DNA from: Escherichia phage skuden
DNA length: 64,000 nt
Direction: 5' to 3' (one strand)
Sequence record: MN850585.1
The notes beneath the pieces are model-generated. The model saw only the letters and a list, made by a program, of their open reading frames with translations. It did no database searches and was not told the origin of the DNA. Below are positions 42,860 through 60,232 of this stretch, piece by piece. Within the stretch, counting starts at the first letter, position 1, and the number at the start of each line of letters is the position of its first letter. The position numbers and the translations under genes were made by a program.

Positions 42860-43966
42860 TCATTCGCTTTTAGCGTCAGCGCGAACATCTACCAGCAACT
42901 GAGGACGAGTACAGTATGGCAGCATGTAAGAGTGAGCTTCGAAGTCAATACCTTCGTCACGGTCTTTTTCGTATTCGAATACGTACAGTTCCTGACCAAG
43001 TGTATTTGCGTAACCCATCTTAGGACATGGACCATATGCAACTTCGAAGATGTTGTTAGCTTCACCCAGCATAGCTACGTTAGGGAAAGCATGACCAACA
43101 CCAACAGTGTCTGCTACGCTGTCAATGCTAACCAGAGTGTGAACCTTACCACGCTTGTCTTTGAACTTACCGTTGTACTGGACAAACTTAACACCACCGT
43201 AGTAGAAAGTATTCATATGAGCCTGAACGCCGTCAGCACCACCAGTTCTCAGAGAACCAGTAATCTGTTGCCAAGCCAGTGGAGTTTGCTGTGCAAGATA
43301 AGCGTCACGAATCTTAGGATGCTTAACCAGTTTGCTGAAGAATACACGGTCAACAACTACGTGAATCTCTTCACCGTTGATTACAGTGCCAGTCTTAGCT
43401 TCATCTTCCATGTGCATACGCAGTTCTTCAATAGAAGCGTCGATATCAGCATTAGGATTGTCAAGGTCGAAGTAAATAGTCTTCTTCTCAACGTCGAACT
43501 GCTTGTACAGGTCAGCGTACAGAGTACCACGAGCATCAACAACTTTACCCTTCAGAGCTTGCATAAACAGGAACTCACGAGTAATATCGAACTTGGTACG
43601 AATCTTCATCAGCTTCTTAGCACGTACTACAGCTTCAGTAGTCAGTTCGTTTGCAGTGCCTGGCTGACGTACACCCTGAATTTCATCAGGAGTGATGCTT
43701 TCAACTTCTTTGAAGTACATCATTGGGAAGCTGATTTGACGAACACGCTCAGGTGCGCTAGTCTCTGCTTTACGGCTATCACGGTCTACCGCATCAAGCA
43801 AGCTAACATCCCAATCAGTCAAGTCCATAAGGAAAGTAGTTTGGGTGATTGGTGCTGAACGGAACAGACCTAAGTTGGAAATATACCCATAAGTATTTGG
43901 GATAGACTGGACTTCACCAGTCAGGTCAGCAAGGAAAAATCTGCTTTTTTCAGAATTAGTCAACAT
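42860..43966 (-). CDS. major capsid protein (lambda gpE-like)
   Basis: 368 aa with GC-rich third-position codon usage typical of highly expressed genes; follows protease and a small decoration-like gene. Confidence 0.65.
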   Translation of the reverse strand: MLTNSEKSRFFLADLTGEVQSIPNTYGYISNLGLFRSAPITQTTFLMDLTDWDVSLLDAVDRDSRKAETSAPERVRQISFPMMYFKEVESITPDEIQGVRQPGTANELTTEAVVRAKKLMKIRTKFDITREFLFMQALKGKVVDARGTLYADLYKQFDVEKKTIYFDLDNPNADIDASIEELRMHMEDEAKTGTVINGEEIHVVVDRVFFSKLVKHPKIRDAYLAQQTPLAWQQITGSLRTGGADGVQAHMNTFYYGGVKFVQYNGKFKDKRGKVHTLVSIDSVADTVGVGHAFPNVAMLGEANNIFEVAYGPCPKMGYANTLGQELYVFEYEKDRDEGIDFEAHSYMLPYCTRPQLLVDVRADAKSE

Positions 43967-54854: not shown

Positions 54855-54861
54855 ATTAATT

Positions 54862-54938
54862 TGGTCTCTGTTGGAGGACTTGAACCTCCGGCCTTACCGC
54901 CCCAAACGGAACGCTCTACCAAGCTGAGCTAAACAGAG
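54862..54938 (-). tRNA. tRNA-Pro (anticodon UGG)
   Basis: Acceptor CTCTGTT/AACAGAG, D-arm GCTC/GAGC, anticodon loop TTTGGGG, T-arm GGAGGTTCAAGTCCTCC. Confidence 0.7.
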
Positions 54939-55103: not shown

Positions 55104-56519
55104 TTACCAGATATAGCGGTCAATCATTACTGCTTTGAGCATTACGCTGATTGGGTCAAACTTCTCACCACCAAGCAGAGCTTTTAAAGTGGCTGGAGAG
55201 AAACCAGATACCATTGCTACACCGTTATCCTTAACAGACACTTCGCAAGTACCATTACGGTTTGCTAAGTACCAGAATACCAGTTGTGGCATTTCGTATC
55301 CAGCTTTCTTGTACTTACTCTGAATTGCTTCAAAGTTTGTACGACCGTTAGCTCCATCAACCTGATTGAACTCCATATCGGAGAAGATGATAAGCTTACT
55401 TGGCATATCTTTCTGAGTCAAGTTGTTTCTTTTACCTGTCTCAAGAATACGGTCAAAAGCTGCTTGTAAGTTAGTTGAACCATATTCAACATGACGCATC
55501 ACCTGACGATGACGGTTTCGTAAATCACCACTCAGTTCGATGAAGTGAGGGTTTGTTGAGTAAACCATTAACTCATTCTTAAAGCAACCAGTATTGCGTT
55601 CTGCTACATACAAGGCAAGTGATACACCAATATCCAGAGCAGTAATGGAGCCAAAATTCACCCAAGACATTGAACTTGATACATCAGACATACACAAGAT
55701 GTTTTCACCTTCTGCCATCCAGTTTGGTAGTGCTTTCCACTGCTCATTAGCAACATCTGCATTACCATACTTGACAGATTTAATCACATCGTATGGGTAA
55801 ACAGCACCAGCGTTAATCTTAGTCTCACCTTTTGATAAGGACTCGATGTAAGCTTTGTAACGCTCTCCATCTTTACGGTTAAACAGTTTTTGGTAACGTG
55901 CAGCAGCAAGTGAAGGAATCTTACTGTAGTCAATCTTACCAAACTCATTAGCAGAGATTTTTTGCTCAACTGTATCAGATAGTGCAGACAACAGTGTGCG
56001 GTACTCTTTCTCACTCAAGTTGGCAAACTTGCAGAAACGTTTTACAAACTGCTTATGACGTGGTTTGACTCGTGGTAACCACTTAGCCGCCAAACCTGCT
56101 GTTGCAGGGTCTAGTAATGCTGCTTCTAAATGTTTGAAGGCATCTGTCTCGAAACGAGTACCTACGAAGATTTTGAAGTCATCAAAACGACCAAGTTCTG
56201 CAATCTTATCCATAATGCGAAGAACCTGCGTAGACTCTAAAACTTTGTCTTCAATTGCTTGAAGCAAAACAGTTCTAAAGGCTTTACGCTCACCCATACC
56301 TTCTCGTACATCTCGCATATGAAGCAAAATACGAACTGCAACATCAACATCCTCACGCAAAGCTTTGTAGAACAGGTCTGGTAAGATTTCTACGTTGCTA
56401 CGGCTTGAACCAGCAGCTTTGTAAAAGTCTACAAGAGCAGACATTGATGAAGTATGGTTTACAGCACCATTTTCAGTTCGACCTGCATGAAGGTGCGCAT
56501 GTTTAAATAATTCGCTCAT
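55104..56519 (-). CDS. von Willebrand factor A (vWA) domain protein with MIDAS motif
   Basis: 471 aa; MIDAS DxSxS at CMSDVSSSMS, then GSTNLQ and LIIFSDMEF; helical N-terminal 270 aa of unknown fold. Confidence 0.6.
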   Translation of the reverse strand: MSELFKHAHLHAGRTENGAVNHTSSMSALVDFYKAAGSSRSNVEILPDLFYKALREDVDVAVRILLHMRDVREGMGERKAFRTVLLQAIEDKVLESTQVLRIMDKIAELGRFDDFKIFVGTRFETDAFKHLEAALLDPATAGLAAKWLPRVKPRHKQFVKRFCKFANLSEKEYRTLLSALSDTVEQKISANEFGKIDYSKIPSLAAARYQKLFNRKDGERYKAYIESLSKGETKINAGAVYPYDVIKSVKYGNADVANEQWKALPNWMAEGENILCMSDVSSSMSWVNFGSITALDIGVSLALYVAERNTGCFKNELMVYSTNPHFIELSGDLRNRHRQVMRHVEYGSTNLQAAFDRILETGKRNNLTQKDMPSKLIIFSDMEFNQVDGANGRTNFEAIQSKYKKAGYEMPQLVFWYLANRNGTCEVSVKDNGVAMVSGFSPATLKALLGGEKFDPISVMLKAVMIDRYIW

Positions 56520-56600: not shown

Positions 56601-56972
56601 TTATTTTTTGAGAGTCGCTACAGCAGAGAACGTTGGTTTGTTATCTGTCTGTTGTTGACCACCATTATCAGGAGTCTTCTTAGTGTCTGCTGCAAGTGCT
56701 TTCATCTCACCTGCTGAGTGGGTAAAGATAGTTTTACCGACATCAATCATACTCTTGATGGTTACGTCATCTGTGTTTAACCCGAACTCTGCAAGCTTAG
56801 CCGCGTCCCTTGTAACAATCGCCTCAAACAGCTTTGCAGCGAACTCAGCAGAATTATCAATGGTCAGTTGAGCTTTTACGAGTGAACTTTTGTTACGAGA
56901 GCCTTTTGGTCTTCCAGATGGGTTTCCAGACTGGCCTTTTTTAAACTGGCCTTTGTTTGTTCTGTTTTTCAT
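56601..56972 (-). CDS. small basic protein with GNPxGRPKG motif
   Basis: 123 aa; N-terminus KGQSGNPSGRPKGSRNK; upstream of and co-oriented with the vWA gene. Confidence 0.5.
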   Translation of the reverse strand: MKNRTNKGQFKKGQSGNPSGRPKGSRNKSSLVKAQLTIDNSAEFAAKLFEAIVTRDAAKLAEFGLNTDDVTIKSMIDVGKTIFTHSAGEMKALAADTKKTPDNGGQQQTDNKPTFSAVATLKK

Positions 56973-57383: not shown

Positions 57384-57598
57384 AAATCGCAGATATTATA
57401 GATTTATATCAAACTGCAAAGAGTCATGGCTATATAACCTCAATTGGAAAGAATAGTCACTATGATGCTTTGACTGGAATGTATTTCAGGGCAATGGCTC
57501 AATCTAGTGAACAACACTTAGTGGTTTCTTCCAGTGAGTTTACTTCGTTTCTCTATTGCAGCAAAATTATAAATCGCAGGAGAACTGAAAAATGTTAA
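57365..57598 (+). CDS. hypothetical protein
   Basis: ORF track 77 aa. Confidence 0.4.
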   Translation: MCSSQLEIADIIDLYQTAKSHGYITSIGKNSHYDALTGMYFRAMAQSSEQHLVVSSSEFTSFLYCSKIINRRRTEKC

Positions 57599-58182
57599 CA
57601 GTAAGTTTTAATTACAATAGTGACGGCTCTGTATCAATTAACTCACCATATGCAAATGACCTACTTAAAGAGCTAGTCAATCAGTGTGAGAGGGGTCTTC
57701 ACTATGTTCAAAATTCTTTTAAACAGAAGACTATTGCTAATAACTTGATGCGTGTAACAGTGACGGCATCTAATCCAAATTATGACTTTGATAGTGAAAG
57801 TCCGTACTCATTAGTTGCGCTTGGAGAGTCCAGCCAATTCAAACTTGTTTGCCACGACTCAGAAACATTCCTTAAGGTATTTTCCAACCTTATCCATAAT
57901 AATAAGTACAGCTACGTTGATGGTAGTGTAAACTTCTATCCAGCAAACTATACATGTTTGTTGACTGATAATATGAGAAAAAGTAAGCAAGAGCCTACAG
58001 AAATCTCATTTGATGTGAACTCTAGTCCAGACGCAGAAACAAGTAAGAACTTTGATATGAGTTATGCGTTGTCACTCAGTAAGAAATCCGAGTTCATTGA
58101 TTATGTCAATGGATTTGGTTTTAAGTTTGATGAGAGTATGAATCTTAAAAAACTTAAGAACCTACTTAAGACCAAAGCTTAA
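57592..58182 (+). CDS. hypothetical protein
   Basis: ORF track 196 aa. Confidence 0.45.
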   Translation: MLTVSFNYNSDGSVSINSPYANDLLKELVNQCERGLHYVQNSFKQKTIANNLMRVTVTASNPNYDFDSESPYSLVALGESSQFKLVCHDSETFLKVFSNLIHNNKYSYVDGSVNFYPANYTCLLTDNMRKSKQEPTEISFDVNSSPDAETSKNFDMSYALSLSKKSEFIDYVNGFGFKFDESMNLKKLKNLLKTKA

Positions 58183-58229
58183 GTGTGAATAGGGGCTGAT
58201 GCCCCTTTAACTATTTATAAGGATATTTA

Positions 58230-58601
58230 ATGAAAGCTAAGAGTGCAAAAGACTTTTATTGCTTCCTACAATCCTATATCAATTCCGTGCAAAATGGTGA
58301 AAGGTACAGCCTTAATGATGTTATCCCAACACCTTTGACATGGAGACTCAGTAAATGGCCTGAAGAAGATATTACACCAACAAGCAAACAACACACCTAC
58401 AAACCTGAAATCAATATTCCAGACTCTGAGAACCTATTATATCCAATGTTCCATATTGTTGGTCTTGGGAGATTCCTTATGGATATTCAGTATGTAATTG
58501 GTAAAGGTTATAAGGTTAAAGGCATTGTTGTTGGTGATGTATCTCCACACCACAAAGGTTATTTTAGACTAAACGCACATTTAGAGGCTAAAAAGAAATG
58601 A
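58230..58601 (+). CDS. hypothetical protein, paralogous to the N-terminal domain of the next gene
   Basis: Shared pattern K-(A/T)-x-DF...GERY/GKRY...W-(P)-E-(E/A)-DI...FMDLQY/LMDIQY. Confidence 0.5.
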   Translation: MKAKSAKDFYCFLQSYINSVQNGERYSLNDVIPTPLTWRLSKWPEEDITPTSKQHTYKPEINIPDSENLLYPMFHIVGLGRFLMDIQYVIGKGYKVKGIVVGDVSPHHKGYFRLNAHLEAKKK

Positions 58602-59731
58602 TTAAAGCAAAGACTTACCCAGACTTTAAAGAGTTTGTGAAGGGCTTCATTGCAAACGTAAAAGCTGGTAAGAGATATGATTTTAGAGCATATCAAGAGG
58701 CTATTTTACCGCTTACCTATAGTTCGTATTGGCCTGAAGCTGATATTGCAGAAGTTGAGGAGTTTGACTACAAACCAGACTACAAAGTTCCATTTAGTGA
58801 TGAGTTGCTTTACAGCATTGGTGCTCAAATGAGAACTTCTGACTTCTTCATGGACTTACAATATGCAATTATCAATGGTAAAGATGTTGATACAATTTAT
58901 TGTGAATGGCTGGCAAGAGTTAAACCATTCTCAATGTTGAATGCTAAGTTGAAGGATGCTATCAAGCCGCCAGCAATCACTCAGCAGCCAACCAATCAAA
59001 CAGTAAATGAAGGTGGTACGCTTACCCTAAGTGTTGTTGCAACGAATGCCACTGGATATCAATGGAAAAAGGATGGTGAGGATATCACTAGCGCCACATC
59101 TGCAACCTACACAAAACAGTCTGTATTACCTTCTGATGCAGGTTCATACACTTGTGTTGTATCTGGAGAGGCTGGGACAAGTGTTACCTCAGATGCGGCA
59201 ACAGTTACTGTTAATGCACTGCCTGTGATTACACAGCAGCCTTCTGGTCAGACCGTCAATGAGGGTGGAAACATCAACTTGGAAGTGACTGCAACAGGTG
59301 CAACAGGTTACCAATGGAAGAAAGATGGCTCTGACATTCCTTCAGCTACAAATGCTACCTATAGCAAGTCTGGTGCGCTGCCAGCAGATGCAGGTTCATA
59401 CACTTGCGTTGTAACAGGTGCGGGTGGTGCAGTGACATCTAATGCTGCTGTAGTAACTGTGAACGCACTTCCAGTAATCACTCAACAGCCAACCAATCAA
59501 GAAATCACTGAAGGTGAGACCTTAACGCTGAATGTTGCGGCAACAGGTGCGACAGGTTACCAGTGGAAGAAAGGTGAGGAAGACATCCTCGATGCAACTA
59601 CTGCAACTTACACCAAAGAAGGTGCAACTGCTGCTGATGCAGGAAGCTATACATGTGTAGTTACTGGCGCAGGTGGCTCTGTAACATCTAATGCAGCAAC
59701 AGTTACTGTTAACCCAGCAGGGGAGGCATAA
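58598..59731 (+). CDS. protein with three tandem Ig-like domains
   Basis: Three repeats of about 81 aa: ITQQP(T/S)xQ(T/E)...ATGYQWKK...DAGSYTCVV(T/S)G...VTVN. Confidence 0.65.
   Translation: MIKAKTYPDFKEFVKGFIANVKAGKRYDFRAYQEAILPLTYSSYWPEADIAEVEEFDYKPDYKVPFSDELLYSIGAQMRTSDFFMDLQYAIINGKDVDTIYCEWLARVKPFSMLNAKLKDAIKPPAITQQPTNQTVNEGGTLTLSVVATNATGYQWKKDGEDITSATSATYTKQSVLPSDAGSYTCVVSGEAGTSVTSDAATVTVNALPVITQQPSGQTVNEGGNINLEVTATGATGYQWKKDGSDIPSATNATYSKSGALPADAGSYTCVVTGAGGAVTSNAAVVTVNALPVITQQPTNQEITEGETLTLNVAATGATGYQWKKGEEDILDATTATYTKEGATAADAGSYTCVVTGAGGSVTSNAATVTVNPAGEA
58965..59725 (+). repeat. three tandem repeats of about 243 bp encoding the Ig-like domains
   Basis: Repeated blocks ggttaccaatggaag...gcaggttcatacacttg(c/t)gttgta. 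Confidence 0.7.
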
Positions 59732-60195
59732 TGCAACTCTCAAGAAAAGGTTTAGAAGCTATTAAGTTCTTTGAAGGTCTTAAACTAGAGGCTTACGAAG
59801 ATTCTGCTGGAATCCCTACAATTGGGTATGGGACAATCCGTATTGCTGGTAAACCTGTTAAGATGGGTATGAAGATTACCGCTGAACAAGCTGAACAGTA
59901 TCTTCTCGCAGATGTTGAAAAGTTCGTTGCAGCAGTGAACAAATCCATCAAGGTTCCAACTTCCCAGAATGAGTTTGACGCACTTGTAAGTGAAACATAC
60001 AACATTGGCATCACAGCTATGCAAGACTCTACATTTATCAAGCGCCACAACGATGGTAATAAGGTCGGTTGTGCAGAAGCTATGCAGTGGTGGAACAAGG
60101 TTACAGTCAAAGGTAAGAAGGTCACTTCAAACGGCCTGAAAAACAGACGTAGAATGGAAGCTGACATTTATCTTGACAGTGTATATCCAAAGTAA
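59731..60195 (+). CDS. endolysin, T4 lysozyme-like (GH24) muramidase
   Basis: LEAYEDSAGIPTIGYGT matches the GH24 catalytic region (Glu, Asp, then TIGYG); 154 aa. Confidence 0.8.
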   Translation: MQLSRKGLEAIKFFEGLKLEAYEDSAGIPTIGYGTIRIAGKPVKMGMKITAEQAEQYLLADVEKFVAAVNKSIKVPTSQNEFDALVSETYNIGITAMQDSTFIKRHNDGNKVGCAEAMQWWNKVTVKGKKVTSNGLKNRRRMEADIYLDSVYPK

Positions 60196-60203
60196 TATCT
60201 TCA

Positions 60204-60232
60204 TAGGCTCCTTCGGGAGCCTTTTTATTTTT
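60204..60232 (+). terminator. rho-independent terminator after the endolysin gene
   Basis: AGGCTCC-TTCG-GGAGCCT followed by TTTTTATTTTT. Confidence 0.75.

What the first reader, a model, noticed from the sequence alone, without database searches (positions are those of the whole stretch)
58230..59731. Paralogous gene pair, the second fused to three tandem Ig-like domains
ORF 58230-58601 and the N-terminal 120 aa of ORF 58598-59731 share a conserved pattern; the second continues into three near-identical repeats of about 81 aa with Ig-like hallmarks (YQWKKDG, DAGSYTCVV). Phage Ig-like domains are usually decorative or adhesion modules on virions, but this protein sits beside the endolysin rather than in the structural module, so its role is unclear.
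Basis: seen in the sequence. Interest (0 to 1): 0.5.

Follow-up and report, generated by a model that had tools for sequence, protein, structure and literature searches.

The report
Felix-O1-type capsid decoration protein plus paralog
The larger gene is a phage head-decoration protein already solved by cryo-EM, which plugs into capsid hexamers and displays three Ig-like domains; only the small upstream copy of its capsid anchor remains unexplained.

Summary
The window comes from a Felix-O1-like myophage (Felixounavirus; 97% DNA identity to phage finno).

**Larger gene.** ORF 58598-59731 is the "Hex-Dec"/gp20 protein already solved on the capsids of Bas63 (PDB 9NCF chain S, E 8e-279) and Sf14 (9C2D). 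[quoted passage not shown] One to four Ig-like domains project outward; this phage has three. The variable Ig count, the position beside the endolysin and the wrong "tail protein" label are all published.

**Small gene.** ORF 58230-58601 is an Ig-less copy of the CapBD (37% identity, E 1e-16; predicted fold matches only 9NCF_S and 9C2D_S). Neither cryo-EM paper mentions it.
- It is conserved and start/stop-coupled to Hex-Dec in four lineages.
- It is under purifying selection (dN/dS 0.13) and transcribed late.
- It lacks both published capsid-anchoring arginines.
- It was not found in the Felix O1 virion proteome.
- It is dispensable: it has decayed in one subclade and is near neutral in Bas63 knockouts.

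Its function is unknown. My best guess is a transient or sub-stoichiometric hexamer binder. Overall the finding is ordinary and already explained, with one small open question.

The parts
58230..58601 (+). Small paralog, 123 aa: a stand-alone, Ig-less copy of the Hex-Dec capsid-binding domain. Equivalent to Felix O1 ORF37, Sf14 gp21 and bas63_0125. PHROG 4463, 'unknown function'.
   Evidence: homology; AF2 model pLDDT 73.5; Foldseek hits only 9ncf_S/9c2d_S, TM 0.65; dN/dS 0.13; anchor Arg79 to Gly in 51/52 sequences, Arg107 to Gln/His in 50/52; distribution.
58598..59731 (+). Hex-Dec / gp20-type Hoc-like capsid decoration protein, 377 aa. Its start overlaps the stop of the small paralog (ATGA), and its stop overlaps the endolysin start (TAATG).
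   Evidence: 9ncf_S E 7.8e-279; 9c2d_S E 5.7e-170; papers read; junctions.
58598..58957 (+). Capsid-binding domain (CapBD), aa 1-120. It contains Arg79 and Arg107, the residues reported to salt-bridge to Asp221 of the major capsid protein in Sf14.
   Evidence: alignment; Sf14 paper: the N-terminal 118 aa form the CapBD; Arg79/Arg107; Arg79 in 100% and Arg107 in 98% of 49 distinct Hex-Dec sequences.
58976..59227 (+). Ig-like domain 1 (I-set type), aa 127-210.
59228..59476 (+). Ig-like domain 2, aa 211-293. This unit is absent from, or recombined in, the two-Ig relatives.
59477..59725 (+). Ig-like domain 3, aa 294-376, the terminal unit. It is the closest match to the single unit of the one-Ig relatives (85-87% identity).
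59731..60195 (+). Endolysin (phage lysozyme, PF00959), the third gene of the coupled unit.
   Evidence: E 2.5e-40; phrog_7.
58192..58205 (+). G+C-rich hairpin GGGGC-TGAT-GCCCC followed by TTT, upstream of the small paralog. The same sequence is listed as a terminator in the Felix O1 genome paper.
   Evidence: sequence; Felix O1 Table 2 lists 'ggggctgatgcccctttaactatttat'. The consensus scan did not flag it because the T run is short.
60205..60222 (+). Terminator-like hairpin AGGCTCCTTCGGGAGCCT followed by TTTTATTTTT, closing the three-gene unit.
42860..43966 (-). Major capsid protein gene (368 aa), the binding partner of Hex-Dec. It lies 14.6 kb away on the other strand.
   Evidence: the translation begins with the Felix O1 gp58 N-terminal sequence printed.

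Best explanation
**Shown or directly transferred from near-identical solved homologs.** ORF 58598-59731 is the Hoc-like hexamer decoration protein of a Felixounavirus (Bas63 'Hex-Dec', Sf14 gp20).
- Its N-terminal domain of about 120 aa binds as a monomer in the centre of the 60 edge (pentamer-proximal) hexamers of the T=9 capsid.
- In Sf14 the binding is anchored by Arg79 and Arg107 to Asp221 of the major capsid protein.
- Three I-set Ig-like domains project outward as a flexible fibre.
- By analogy with T4 Hoc, these probably mediate weak adhesion to surfaces or mucus, or virion aggregation. This step is an inference made by the published authors and has not been shown.
- The number of Ig units (1-4 in the genus) changes by in-register unequal recombination between the roughly 67%-identical repeats. 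This is my inference from hybrid units in relatives.

**Small paralog, what is shown.** ORF 58230-58601 arose by duplication of the capsid-binding domain.
- The duplication predates the split of Felixounavirus, Mooglevirus, Suspvirus and a fourth metagenomic lineage.
- The gene is a working late gene, translationally coupled to Hex-Dec and under purifying selection.
- It is non-essential.
- It was not detected in the purified virions analysed.
- Its capsid-facing anchor residues have been replaced.

**Small paralog, inferred mechanism (about 35% likely).** It still recognises the centre of a capsid-protein hexamer, but in a different state or site from Hex-Dec. Candidates are procapsid hexamers or the 20 three-fold hexamers. 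It would act transiently or at low occupancy during head assembly, for example by gating or tuning where Hex-Dec binds, rather than as a stable decoration.
For: **Hex-Dec identity**
- PDB sequence search: 9ncf_S E 7.8e-279 and 9c2d_S E 5.7e-170, full-length alignments with Arg79 and Arg107 conserved.
- Pfam shows three Ig-type stretches. AF2 gives pLDDT of about 95 for the Ig units. Foldseek matches tandem I-set arrays.
- Capsid location and copy distribution come from PMC12609058 and PMC11821841.
- Felix O1 virion MS found gp36 at 44% coverage.
- Synteny CapBD gene-endolysin holds in every relative examined.
- Ig counts by protein length: 210 aa = 1, 294 = 2, 372-377 = 3, 460 = 4.
- Hybrid units: the second Felix O1 unit is 80% identical to window Ig2 and 85% to Ig3; the first REP5 unit is 82% to Ig1 and 84% to Ig2.

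**Small paralog**
- Homology. The fold matches only the two solved CapBDs in the PDB (TM 0.65, probability 1.0) and only Ounavirinae proteins in BFVD.
- Present and immediately upstream of Hex-Dec in 232 of 252 matching phage records and in loci from four lineages, with overlapping stop/start codons.
- dN/dS is 0.13, against 0.036 for the CapBD and 0.12 for Ig1.
- 44 alignment columns are conserved within each family but differ between them. Arg79 is Gly in 51/52 and Arg107 is Gln/His in 50/52 distinct small-paralog sequences.
- Felix O1 ORF36 and ORF37 both peak late, at 60 min, alongside morphogenesis genes. gp37 is absent from the virion proteome although proteins of 10-14 kDa were detected.
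- Bas63 knockout scores for gene 125 are +0.16 to +0.52 on S17-1 and noisy on MG1655, where essential genes score -2 to -4.
- Natural decay in the Z31/fBSPA4/REP5/REP8/P54 subclade.
Against: **Hex-Dec.** There is no physical evidence for this particular phage; everything is transferred from homologs whose CapBD is 88-98% identical. No adhesion function of the Ig fibre has been demonstrated in any Ounavirinae member. In Bas63 the gene is dispensable on laboratory hosts, with only a mild effect on S17-1.

**Proposed role of the small paralog.**
- No experiment addresses it.
- Both cryo-EM studies report no density on the three-fold hexamers.
- The two published anchor arginines are gone, so it may not bind capsid at all.
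- The virion MS evidence is negative only. The Felix O1 study required at least 25% coverage, and 20 copies per virion could have been missed.
- Its loss in one subclade that keeps an intact two-Ig Hex-Dec shows Hex-Dec does not need it.
Confidence: 0.8

Rival explanations
1. The small paralog is a true second hexamer decoration protein that stays on the virion. It would sit either on the 20 three-fold hexamers that Hex-Dec does not occupy, or compete with Hex-Dec on the edge hexamers to thin out the Ig fibres.
For: It has the same fold as the CapBD. It is expressed late with Hex-Dec and coupled to it. Its capsid-facing segments are conserved within the family but differ from Hex-Dec. That fits the Sf14 observation that Asp221 is positioned differently in three-fold hexamers. 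A monomer on a strict three-fold axis would be weakened by icosahedral averaging.
Against: Bas63 and Sf14 report no density on the other hexamers. gp37 is not among the Felix O1 virion proteins although smaller proteins were detected. By the authors' text it is not among the VpaE1 virion proteins either. ModelAngelo built Hex-Dec unambiguously at the edge sites.
Confidence: 0.15
2. The small paralog has acquired a new function away from the capsid. Examples would be binding the Hex-Dec CapBD itself, a host factor, or a defence sensor as a decoy. Only the fold would be inherited.
For: It has lost both anchor arginines and shows 44 conserved-but-different columns. A long stem branch follows the duplication. 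It is absent from virion proteomes and dispensable on laboratory hosts, as accessory host-interaction genes often are.
Against: It has no hit to any defence or anti-defence family (PADLOC, NCBIfam, Pfam). The PhageMaP text does not flag it as a defence trigger or counter. Its strict adjacency and coupling to Hex-Dec in every lineage argue for a linked function.
Confidence: 0.25
3. The small ORF is a functionless leftover of a tandem duplication, drifting towards loss.
For: It has decayed to a remnant of about 190 bp in one Felixounavirus subclade. Bas63 knockouts are near neutral.
Against: dN/dS is 0.13 over 45 pairwise comparisons across genera with saturated dS. The full-length ORF is intact in 232 records and in a fourth divergent lineage. 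Its C-terminal half is almost invariant.
Confidence: 0.05
4. A programmed -1 ribosomal frameshift at T_AAA_AAG (58589-58595) fuses the small paralog to Hex-Dec, giving a CapBD-CapBD-Ig3 protein of about 500 aa.
For: The codons AAA AAG lie just before the stop, and the -1 frame is the Hex-Dec frame. Ig-like domains in phages are sometimes appended by frameshifting (general knowledge, Fraser et al. 2006).
Against: The first base of the heptamer does not fit the X_XXY_YYZ pattern. No downstream structure is predicted (z-score -0.70). Mooglevirus has GCT AAG AAA TGA, and Suspvirus has a +1 frame relation with an 8-nt overlap, so no signal is conserved. Felix O1 MS reports gp36 at its own mass of 31.6 kDa.
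Confidence: 0.03
5. The protein is a tail protein, as most database records and PHROG 3995 say.
For: The annotation 'tail protein' or 'putative tail protein' appears in most GenBank records and in phrog_3995. It traces back to 'Gp36 (major tail protein)' in the Felix O1 genome paper.
Against: Two independent cryo-EM structures place it on capsid hexamers. The Bas63 authors state explicitly that the annotation is wrong.
Confidence: 0.01

Closest known systems
Bas63 Hex-Dec (bas63_0124; PDB 9NCF chain S) and Sf14 gp20 (PDB 9C2D/9C3A chain S)
   Same: Same family. The alignment is near-identical over residues 1-317 (Bas63). N-terminal CapBD with Arg79 and Arg107, C-terminal I-set Ig repeats, and the same gene neighbourhood (small paralog, Hex-Dec, endolysin).
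   Different: This phage has three Ig units, Bas63 has four and Sf14 has three more diverged ones. The window's small paralog is only 83% identical to bas63_0125 although the Hex-Dec sequences are nearly identical over the aligned region, which suggests local mosaicism.
[quoted passage not shown]
   Same: It works the same way: a monomer at the hexamer centre, with a small capsid-binding domain plus a string of Ig-like domains. It is dispensable, and the number of Ig domains varies among relatives.
   Different: The domain order is reversed, with the CapBD C-terminal in Hoc. According to the Bas63 paper, the CapBD is topologically distinct and larger here, with pseudo-C2 symmetry. PHROG 'Hoc-like' hits cover only the Ig region, residues 121-290. 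Hoc occupies all T4 hexamers, whereas Hex-Dec occupies only the edge hexamers. No CapBD-only paralog is known to me for Hoc.
T5 pb10 decoration protein
   Same: [quoted passage not shown]
   Different: It has one Ig domain. Only the Ig part matches by sequence (5lxk_A and 8zvi_a, residues 216-289). The pb10 anchor domain did not appear among the fold matches of the small-paralog model.
Kolesnikvirus (phiEa21-4 / Pistou) 'conserved structural protein' and metagenomic single-copy CapBD proteins
   Same: A homologous CapBD at the same genomic position next to the lysozyme. Arg79 is retained in Kolesnikvirus and in P0097.
   Different: The display module is swapped: Big_2 in Kolesnikvirus (E 8.5e-21), a Big-like domain in P0098, and only a K/S/E-rich tail in P0099. 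None of these has the small paralog.

Membership tests
Ounavirinae Hex-Dec / gp20 decoration protein (ORF 58598-59731) | N-terminal capsid-binding domain homologous to the solved chains 9NCF_S and 9C2D_S | tested here: met
   phmmer E 7.8e-279 and 5.7e-170, aligned from residue 1.
Ounavirinae Hex-Dec / gp20 decoration protein (ORF 58598-59731) | Capsid-anchoring Arg79 and Arg107 (Sf14 gp20 numbering) | tested here: met
   Both are present in the window protein. They are conserved in 100% and 98% of 49 distinct family sequences.
Ounavirinae Hex-Dec / gp20 decoration protein (ORF 58598-59731) | C-terminal tandem Ig-like domains | tested here: met
   Pfam Ig_3, I-set and Ig_2 with three stretches each. 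AF2 pLDDT of about 95. Foldseek matches Robo, titin and LRIG1 Ig arrays.
Ounavirinae Hex-Dec / gp20 decoration protein (ORF 58598-59731) | Gene lies immediately upstream of the endolysin and outside the structural module | tested here: met
   The major capsid gene is 14.6 kb away.
Ounavirinae Hex-Dec / gp20 decoration protein (ORF 58598-59731) | Physically bound at the centres of edge hexamers of the T=9 capsid | not testable with these tools
   Shown for Bas63 and Sf14 by cryo-EM. Inferred here from sequence identity.
Hex-Dec family, applied to the small paralog (ORF 58230-58601) | CapBD fold | tested here: met
   BLASTP E 1e-16. PDB sequence hits at 1e-11. AF2 model with Foldseek TM 0.65, probability 1.0, to 9ncf_S and 9c2d_S only.
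Hex-Dec family, applied to the small paralog (ORF 58230-58601) | Anchoring Arg79 and Arg107 | tested here: not met
   Gly in 51/52 and Gln/His in 50/52 distinct sequences.
Hex-Dec family, applied to the small paralog (ORF 58230-58601) | Ig-like display domains | tested here: not met
   The protein ends at residue 123. It has no Pfam hit, and all 51 clusters are 104-124 aa or shorter fragments.
Hex-Dec family, applied to the small paralog (ORF 58230-58601) | Present in purified virions or on the capsid | not testable with these tools
   Literature only. It is not among the Felix O1 virion proteins, and no unassigned hexamer density was seen in Bas63 or Sf14. This is negative evidence, not proof.
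T4 Hoc family | Homologous C-terminal Hoc capsid-binding domain | tested here: not met
   Hoc-like PHROG hits cover only the Ig region 121-290. No Hoc chain appears among the CapBD fold matches. The Bas63 paper reports reversed domain order and a distinct topology. It is an analogue, not a member.
Programmed -1 frameshift site | X_XXY_YYZ heptamer, a downstream stimulatory structure, and conservation in relatives | tested here: not met
   T_AAA_AAG fits only partly. The fold z-score is -0.70. The motif is absent in Mooglevirus, and the frame relation differs in Suspvirus.

The most novel reading that the evidence does not exclude
The 123-aa protein and Hex-Dec are a pair of paralogous hexamer-centre binders that have divided the quasi-equivalent capsomers, or the maturation states, of a T=9 head between them. 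Hex-Dec takes the 60 bent edge hexamers of the mature capsid. The Ig-less paralog, with remodelled capsid-facing loops, recognises the flat three-fold hexamers or the skewed procapsid hexamers and controls where or when the Ig fibre is installed. This would be a previously undescribed way of patterning a phage capsid surface.
Probability: 0.15. Interest if true: 0.5.

Novelty: already known. Interest (0 to 1): 0.22.

Why it matters
The main object matters little as a discovery. Structure, location, variable Ig number and misannotation were all published in 2025 for near-identical proteins.

It has practical value for annotation. 'Tail protein' should read 'Hoc-like capsid decoration protein'. 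The 123-aa neighbour, which UniRef also calls 'tail protein' and PHROGs calls 'unknown function', should be labelled as a paralog of the Hex-Dec capsid-binding domain.

The open point is modest but testable: why four lineages keep, under purifying selection, an Ig-less copy of a capsid anchor that has lost the known anchoring residues and was not detected in the virion proteomes examined. An answer could show how decoration proteins tell quasi-equivalent hexamers apart. It is also relevant to using this anchor for phage display, as is done with T4 Hoc and T5 pb10.

Tried and rejected
- **Tail protein reading.** Rejected because the cryo-EM papers contradict it.
- **DNA-level tandem repeat.** Tandem Repeats Finder finds no array with a period of about 250 nt. 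The units are 66-68% identical at the DNA level.
- **-1 frameshift fusion at T_AAA_AAG.** Rejected: no downstream structure and no conservation in relatives.
- **Pseudogene or decaying duplicate.** Rejected by dN/dS of 0.13.
- **Charge difference between the paralogs as a clue.** Net charge and pI vary between genera with no consistent contrast.
- **Defence or anti-defence role.** No PADLOC, NCBIfam or Pfam hit, and no mention in the PhageMaP text.
- **Remote relatives of the anchor domain.** A profile search of 1.84 billion representatives gave only 12 hits. Foldseek against PDB and BFVD gave only Ounavirinae proteins. The fold therefore appears confined to this subfamily and offers no functional lead.
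- **Virion MS data for the small paralog in Sf14.** The supplements held contain nothing on it.
- **SUSP1 CRISPRi-ART fitness data.** The gene names I tried returned nothing.
- **AF2 model of full-length Hex-Dec.** It models the Ig units well but the CapBD poorly (pLDDT 30-55), as the Sf14 authors also noted. I could not compare interface geometry because no coordinates were available to my scripts.
- **Word-indexed homolog search with the CapBD.** It returned mainly 210-aa forms, so it does not give an unbiased distribution of Ig copy number.
Full report
**1. The observation**

Both ORFs are present exactly where stated: 58230-58601 (123 aa) and 58598-59731 (377 aa), on the + strand. The stop of the first overlaps the start of the second (ATGA). 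The stop of the second overlaps the start of a phage lysozyme (TAATG; PF00959, E 2.5e-40).

- The two proteins align at 37% identity over 101 residues, E 1e-16.
- Each hits the other's PHROG family, at 7e-15 and 1e-16.
- The second protein carries three Ig-type units: Pfam Ig_3 E 1.4e-33, I-set 3.8e-26 and Ig_2 3.9e-26, three stretches each.
- The units are 83-84 aa long and 67-74% identical in protein and 66-68% in DNA. 'Near-identical' is therefore overstated, and Tandem Repeats Finder does not report them.
- An AlphaFold2 model gives pLDDT of about 95 for all three units. Foldseek matches tandem I-set arrays of LRIG1, Robo1/2 and titin at E 1e-19 to 6e-21.

**2. What the large protein is**

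The window belongs to a Felix-O1-like myophage. There are 249 phage records with matching DNA, the best being Escherichia phage finno at 97.4%.

A sequence search of the PDB finds the protein itself in two solved structures: 9NCF chain S ('Immunoglobulin-like domain protein', E 7.8e-279) and 9C2D/9C3A chain S ('Tail protein', E 5.7e-170). These are the icosahedral capsid reconstructions of phage Bas63 (PMC12609058) and Shigella phage Sf14 (PMC11821841). The papers report the following.

- The protein is called Hex-Dec in Bas63 and gp20 in Sf14. It is a monomeric, Hoc-like decoration protein.
- Its N-terminal domain of about 118 aa (the CapBD) sits in the centre of hexamers at the facet edges of the T=9 head. 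That is one copy per asymmetric unit, so 60 copies.
- No density is seen on the 20 three-fold hexamers.
- In Sf14 the domain is anchored by Arg79 and Arg107 to Asp221 of the major capsid protein. Both arginines are present in the window protein.
- The Ig domains are flexible and unresolved.
- The number of Ig domains varies from one to four within the genus.
- The gene lies more than 10 kb outside the structural module.
- The common 'tail protein' annotation is wrong.

That annotation goes back to the Felix O1 genome paper. There, Gp36 was detected in virions at 44% coverage and called 'major tail protein' (PMC3185647).

In this window the major capsid gene is at 42860-43966 on the minus strand, 14.6 kb away. 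The position of the gene beside the endolysin is conserved in every relative I looked at:
- Felix O1, Sf14, JH2, EC6, BPS17W1, Moogle, SUSP2, EcSzw_1, KMM4 and Bas63;
- Erwinia phage Pistou;
- two metagenomic lineages.

Its location is therefore a subfamily trait, not an anomaly.

**3. Copy number of the Ig units**

Protein lengths fall into four steps:

| Length | Ig units | Examples |
|---|---|---|
| 210 aa | 1 | JH2, EC6, EcSzw_1 |
| 294 aa | 2 | Felix O1, Moogle, SUSP2 |
| 372-377 aa | 3 | this window, BPS17W1, Sf14 |
| 460 aa | 4 | Bas63 |

Units in relatives are often hybrids of the window's units.
- The second Felix O1 unit is 80% identical to window Ig2 and 85% to Ig3.
- The first REP5 unit is 82% identical to Ig1 and 84% to Ig2.
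- The single unit of one-Ig phages is closest to Ig3 (85-87%) and 73-77% to Ig1.

I infer that copy number changes by in-register unequal recombination between repeats.

The anchor domain is combined with other display modules in more distant relatives:
- a Big_2 domain in Kolesnikvirus (E 8.5e-21);
- a Big-like domain in P0098;
- only a lysine/serine/glutamate-rich tail in P0099.

**4. The small paralog: the only part not already described**

Neither cryo-EM paper mentions it. 'Paralog' occurs zero times in both, and gp19 and gp21 are not discussed in the Sf14 text. A search for further literature found nothing. It corresponds to Felix O1 ORF37, Sf14 gp21, VpaE1 ORF40c and bas63_0125. My results are as follows.

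(a) **Fold.** The AF2 model (pLDDT 73.5, pTM 0.72) matches only 9ncf_S and 9c2d_S in the PDB (TM 0.65, probability 1.0). In BFVD it matches only Ounavirinae proteins.

(b) **Distribution.**
- It is found in 232 of 252 matching phage records, always immediately upstream of Hex-Dec.
- It forms 51 clusters at 90% identity, all at least 67% identical to the query.
- The stop/start overlap is kept in Felixounavirus, Mooglevirus and Suspvirus.
- The same adjacent arrangement occurs in a fourth, divergent lineage on an 87-kb metagenomic contig, where P0093 and P0094 sit side by side.
- It is absent from Kolesnikvirus and from the more distant single-copy lineages.
- A neighbour-joining tree puts all small paralogs in one clade on a long stem. 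I ran no bootstrap.

(c) **Selection.** dN/dS is 0.13, against 0.036 for the Hex-Dec CapBD and 0.12 for Ig1.

(d) **Divergence pattern.** I compared 52 distinct small-paralog sequences with 49 distinct Hex-Dec CapBD sequences.
- 35 columns are conserved and identical.
- 44 columns are conserved within each family but differ between them.
- Arg79 is Gly in 51/52 small-paralog sequences.
- Arg107 is Gln or His in 50/52.

(e) **Expression.** In Felix O1 RT-PCR, ORF36 and ORF37 both peak at 60 min alongside morphogenesis genes. A hairpin listed as a terminator in that paper lies just upstream (58192-58205). A strong terminator-like hairpin follows the endolysin (60205-60222).

(f) **Not seen in virions.** gp37 is not among the Felix O1 virion proteins, although proteins of 10-14 kDa were detected. 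The VpaE1 text implies the same.

(g) **Dispensable.**
- In the Z31/fBSPA4/REP5/REP8/P54 subclade the gene is a remnant of about 190 bp. In Z31 the start codon is lost and about 215 bp are deleted. Hex-Dec remains intact with two Ig units in four of the five phages.
- In the Bas63 PhageMaP knockout screen, gene 125 scores +0.16, +0.52 and +0.26 on S17-1.
- On MG1655 it scores -1.34, +1.08 and -0.75 with large variances. Essential genes there score -2 to -4.
- Hex-Dec (gene 124) is also dispensable. It is slightly more needed on S17-1, and the authors speculate about an adherence role.

**5. How it most likely works**

*Hex-Dec.* The mechanism transfers from the solved homologs with high confidence. 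The N-terminal plug sits in the centre of the edge hexamers, and the Ig fibre points outward. The adhesion or aggregation role is by analogy with T4 Hoc and is unproven.

*Small paralog.* The data show a functional, late, coupled and non-essential protein. It has the anchor fold but a re-engineered capsid-facing surface, and it has not been detected in the virions analysed.

- My preferred reading (about 35%) is a transient or low-occupancy hexamer-centre binder during head assembly. It would act on procapsid hexamers or the three-fold hexamers and influence Hex-Dec placement.
- Rivals: a function away from the capsid (about 25%); a stable second decoration protein missed so far (about 15%); a decaying duplicate (about 5%, contradicted by dN/dS).
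- A -1 frameshift fusion at T_AAA_AAG (about 3%) has little support. There is no downstream structure (z-score -0.70), and the motif and frame relation are not conserved.

**6. Comparison with known systems and verdict**

- The large protein is a member of the Hex-Dec/gp20 family. All sequence-testable defining features are met.
- It works like T4 Hoc and T5 pb10 but is not homologous to them in the anchor domain. Hoc-like PHROG hits cover only the Ig region, and the Bas63 paper reports a distinct topology and reversed domain order.
- The anchor fold is extremely restricted. Only 12 of 1.84 billion representative proteins reach E 1e-3 against a profile of both paralogs.
- The small paralog meets the fold criterion of the family but fails the anchor-residue and Ig-domain criteria. 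It should be described as a CapBD paralog, not as a decoration protein.

The finding is correct as an observation and already explained for its main component. The residual novelty is the undescribed Ig-less paralog, a modest and testable question. Interest 0.22; novelty: already known.

Noticed in passing
window 58589-58595: The last codons of the small paralog read GCT AAA AAG AAA TGA. T_AAA_AAG resembles the dnaX -1 slippery site, and the -1 frame is the Hex-Dec frame. No stimulatory structure is predicted, and the motif is not conserved in Mooglevirus or Suspvirus.
   Followed up: yes
L002 2806-3570 (Shigella phage Z31); L004-L007: A Felixounavirus subclade (Z31, fBSPA4, REP5, REP8, P54) carries only a decayed remnant of about 190 bp of the small paralog. 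In Z31 Hex-Dec is also broken, into a 134-aa CapBD-only ORF plus a 55-aa Ig fragment. The other four phages keep an intact two-Ig protein.
   Followed up: partly
L015 2941-3555 (Erwinia phage Pistou); L018 5001-5462; proteins P0095-P0099: The same capsid anchor is fused to different display modules in distant relatives: Big_2 in Kolesnikvirus, a Big-like domain, or only a K/S/E-rich disordered tail. It is always next to the lysozyme and never accompanied by the small paralog.
   Followed up: partly
window 56601-56972 (- strand), DUF5681 protein: Its Bas63 ortholog (gene 129) is among the more strongly required genes in the PhageMaP screen: -3.1 to -3.5 on MG1655 and -0.9 to -1.5 on S17-1. Its function is unknown. 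The neighbouring DUF2828 'RNA-binding protein' (window 55104-56519, - strand) is dispensable (+0.6 to +1.1).
   Followed up: no
window 50108-54938 (- strand): An array of 25 tRNA genes lies directly beside the DUF2828 (annotated 'RNA-binding protein') gene, as in Felix O1.
   Followed up: no
window 57592-58182 (+ strand), 196 aa, phrog_4034 'unknown function': This conserved gene sits immediately upstream of the pair in all lineages. Bas63 gene 126 shows mildly negative knockout scores (-0.3 to -1.3). The protein at the same position in L018 has a faint Phage_Inh_N Pfam hit.
   Followed up: no
model m8c2358642cdb against mc67a3d38b6de: AlphaFold2 models the CapBD poorly when it is given as part of Hex-Dec (pLDDT 30-55, wrongly all-helical). 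It recovers the solved fold from the small-paralog alignment (pLDDT 73.5). This echoes the Sf14 authors' remark that the AF model of the CapBD does not match the density.
   Followed up: partly
GenBank records GU169904.1 (hit H89) and PV390658.1 (L007): 'Staphylococcus phage SA1' (147 kb) contains this Felix-O1-like region at about 97% protein identity, which suggests a mixed or contaminated assembly. Phage vB_EcoM_P54 is filed under Tequatrovirus in its record although this locus is Felixounavirus-like.
   Followed up: no
window 58230-58601 against 58598-58957, compared with Bas63 (L021): Hex-Dec is nearly identical to that of Bas63 over residues 1-317, but the adjacent small paralog is only 83% identical. 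This suggests a recombination breakpoint between the two genes.
   Followed up: no
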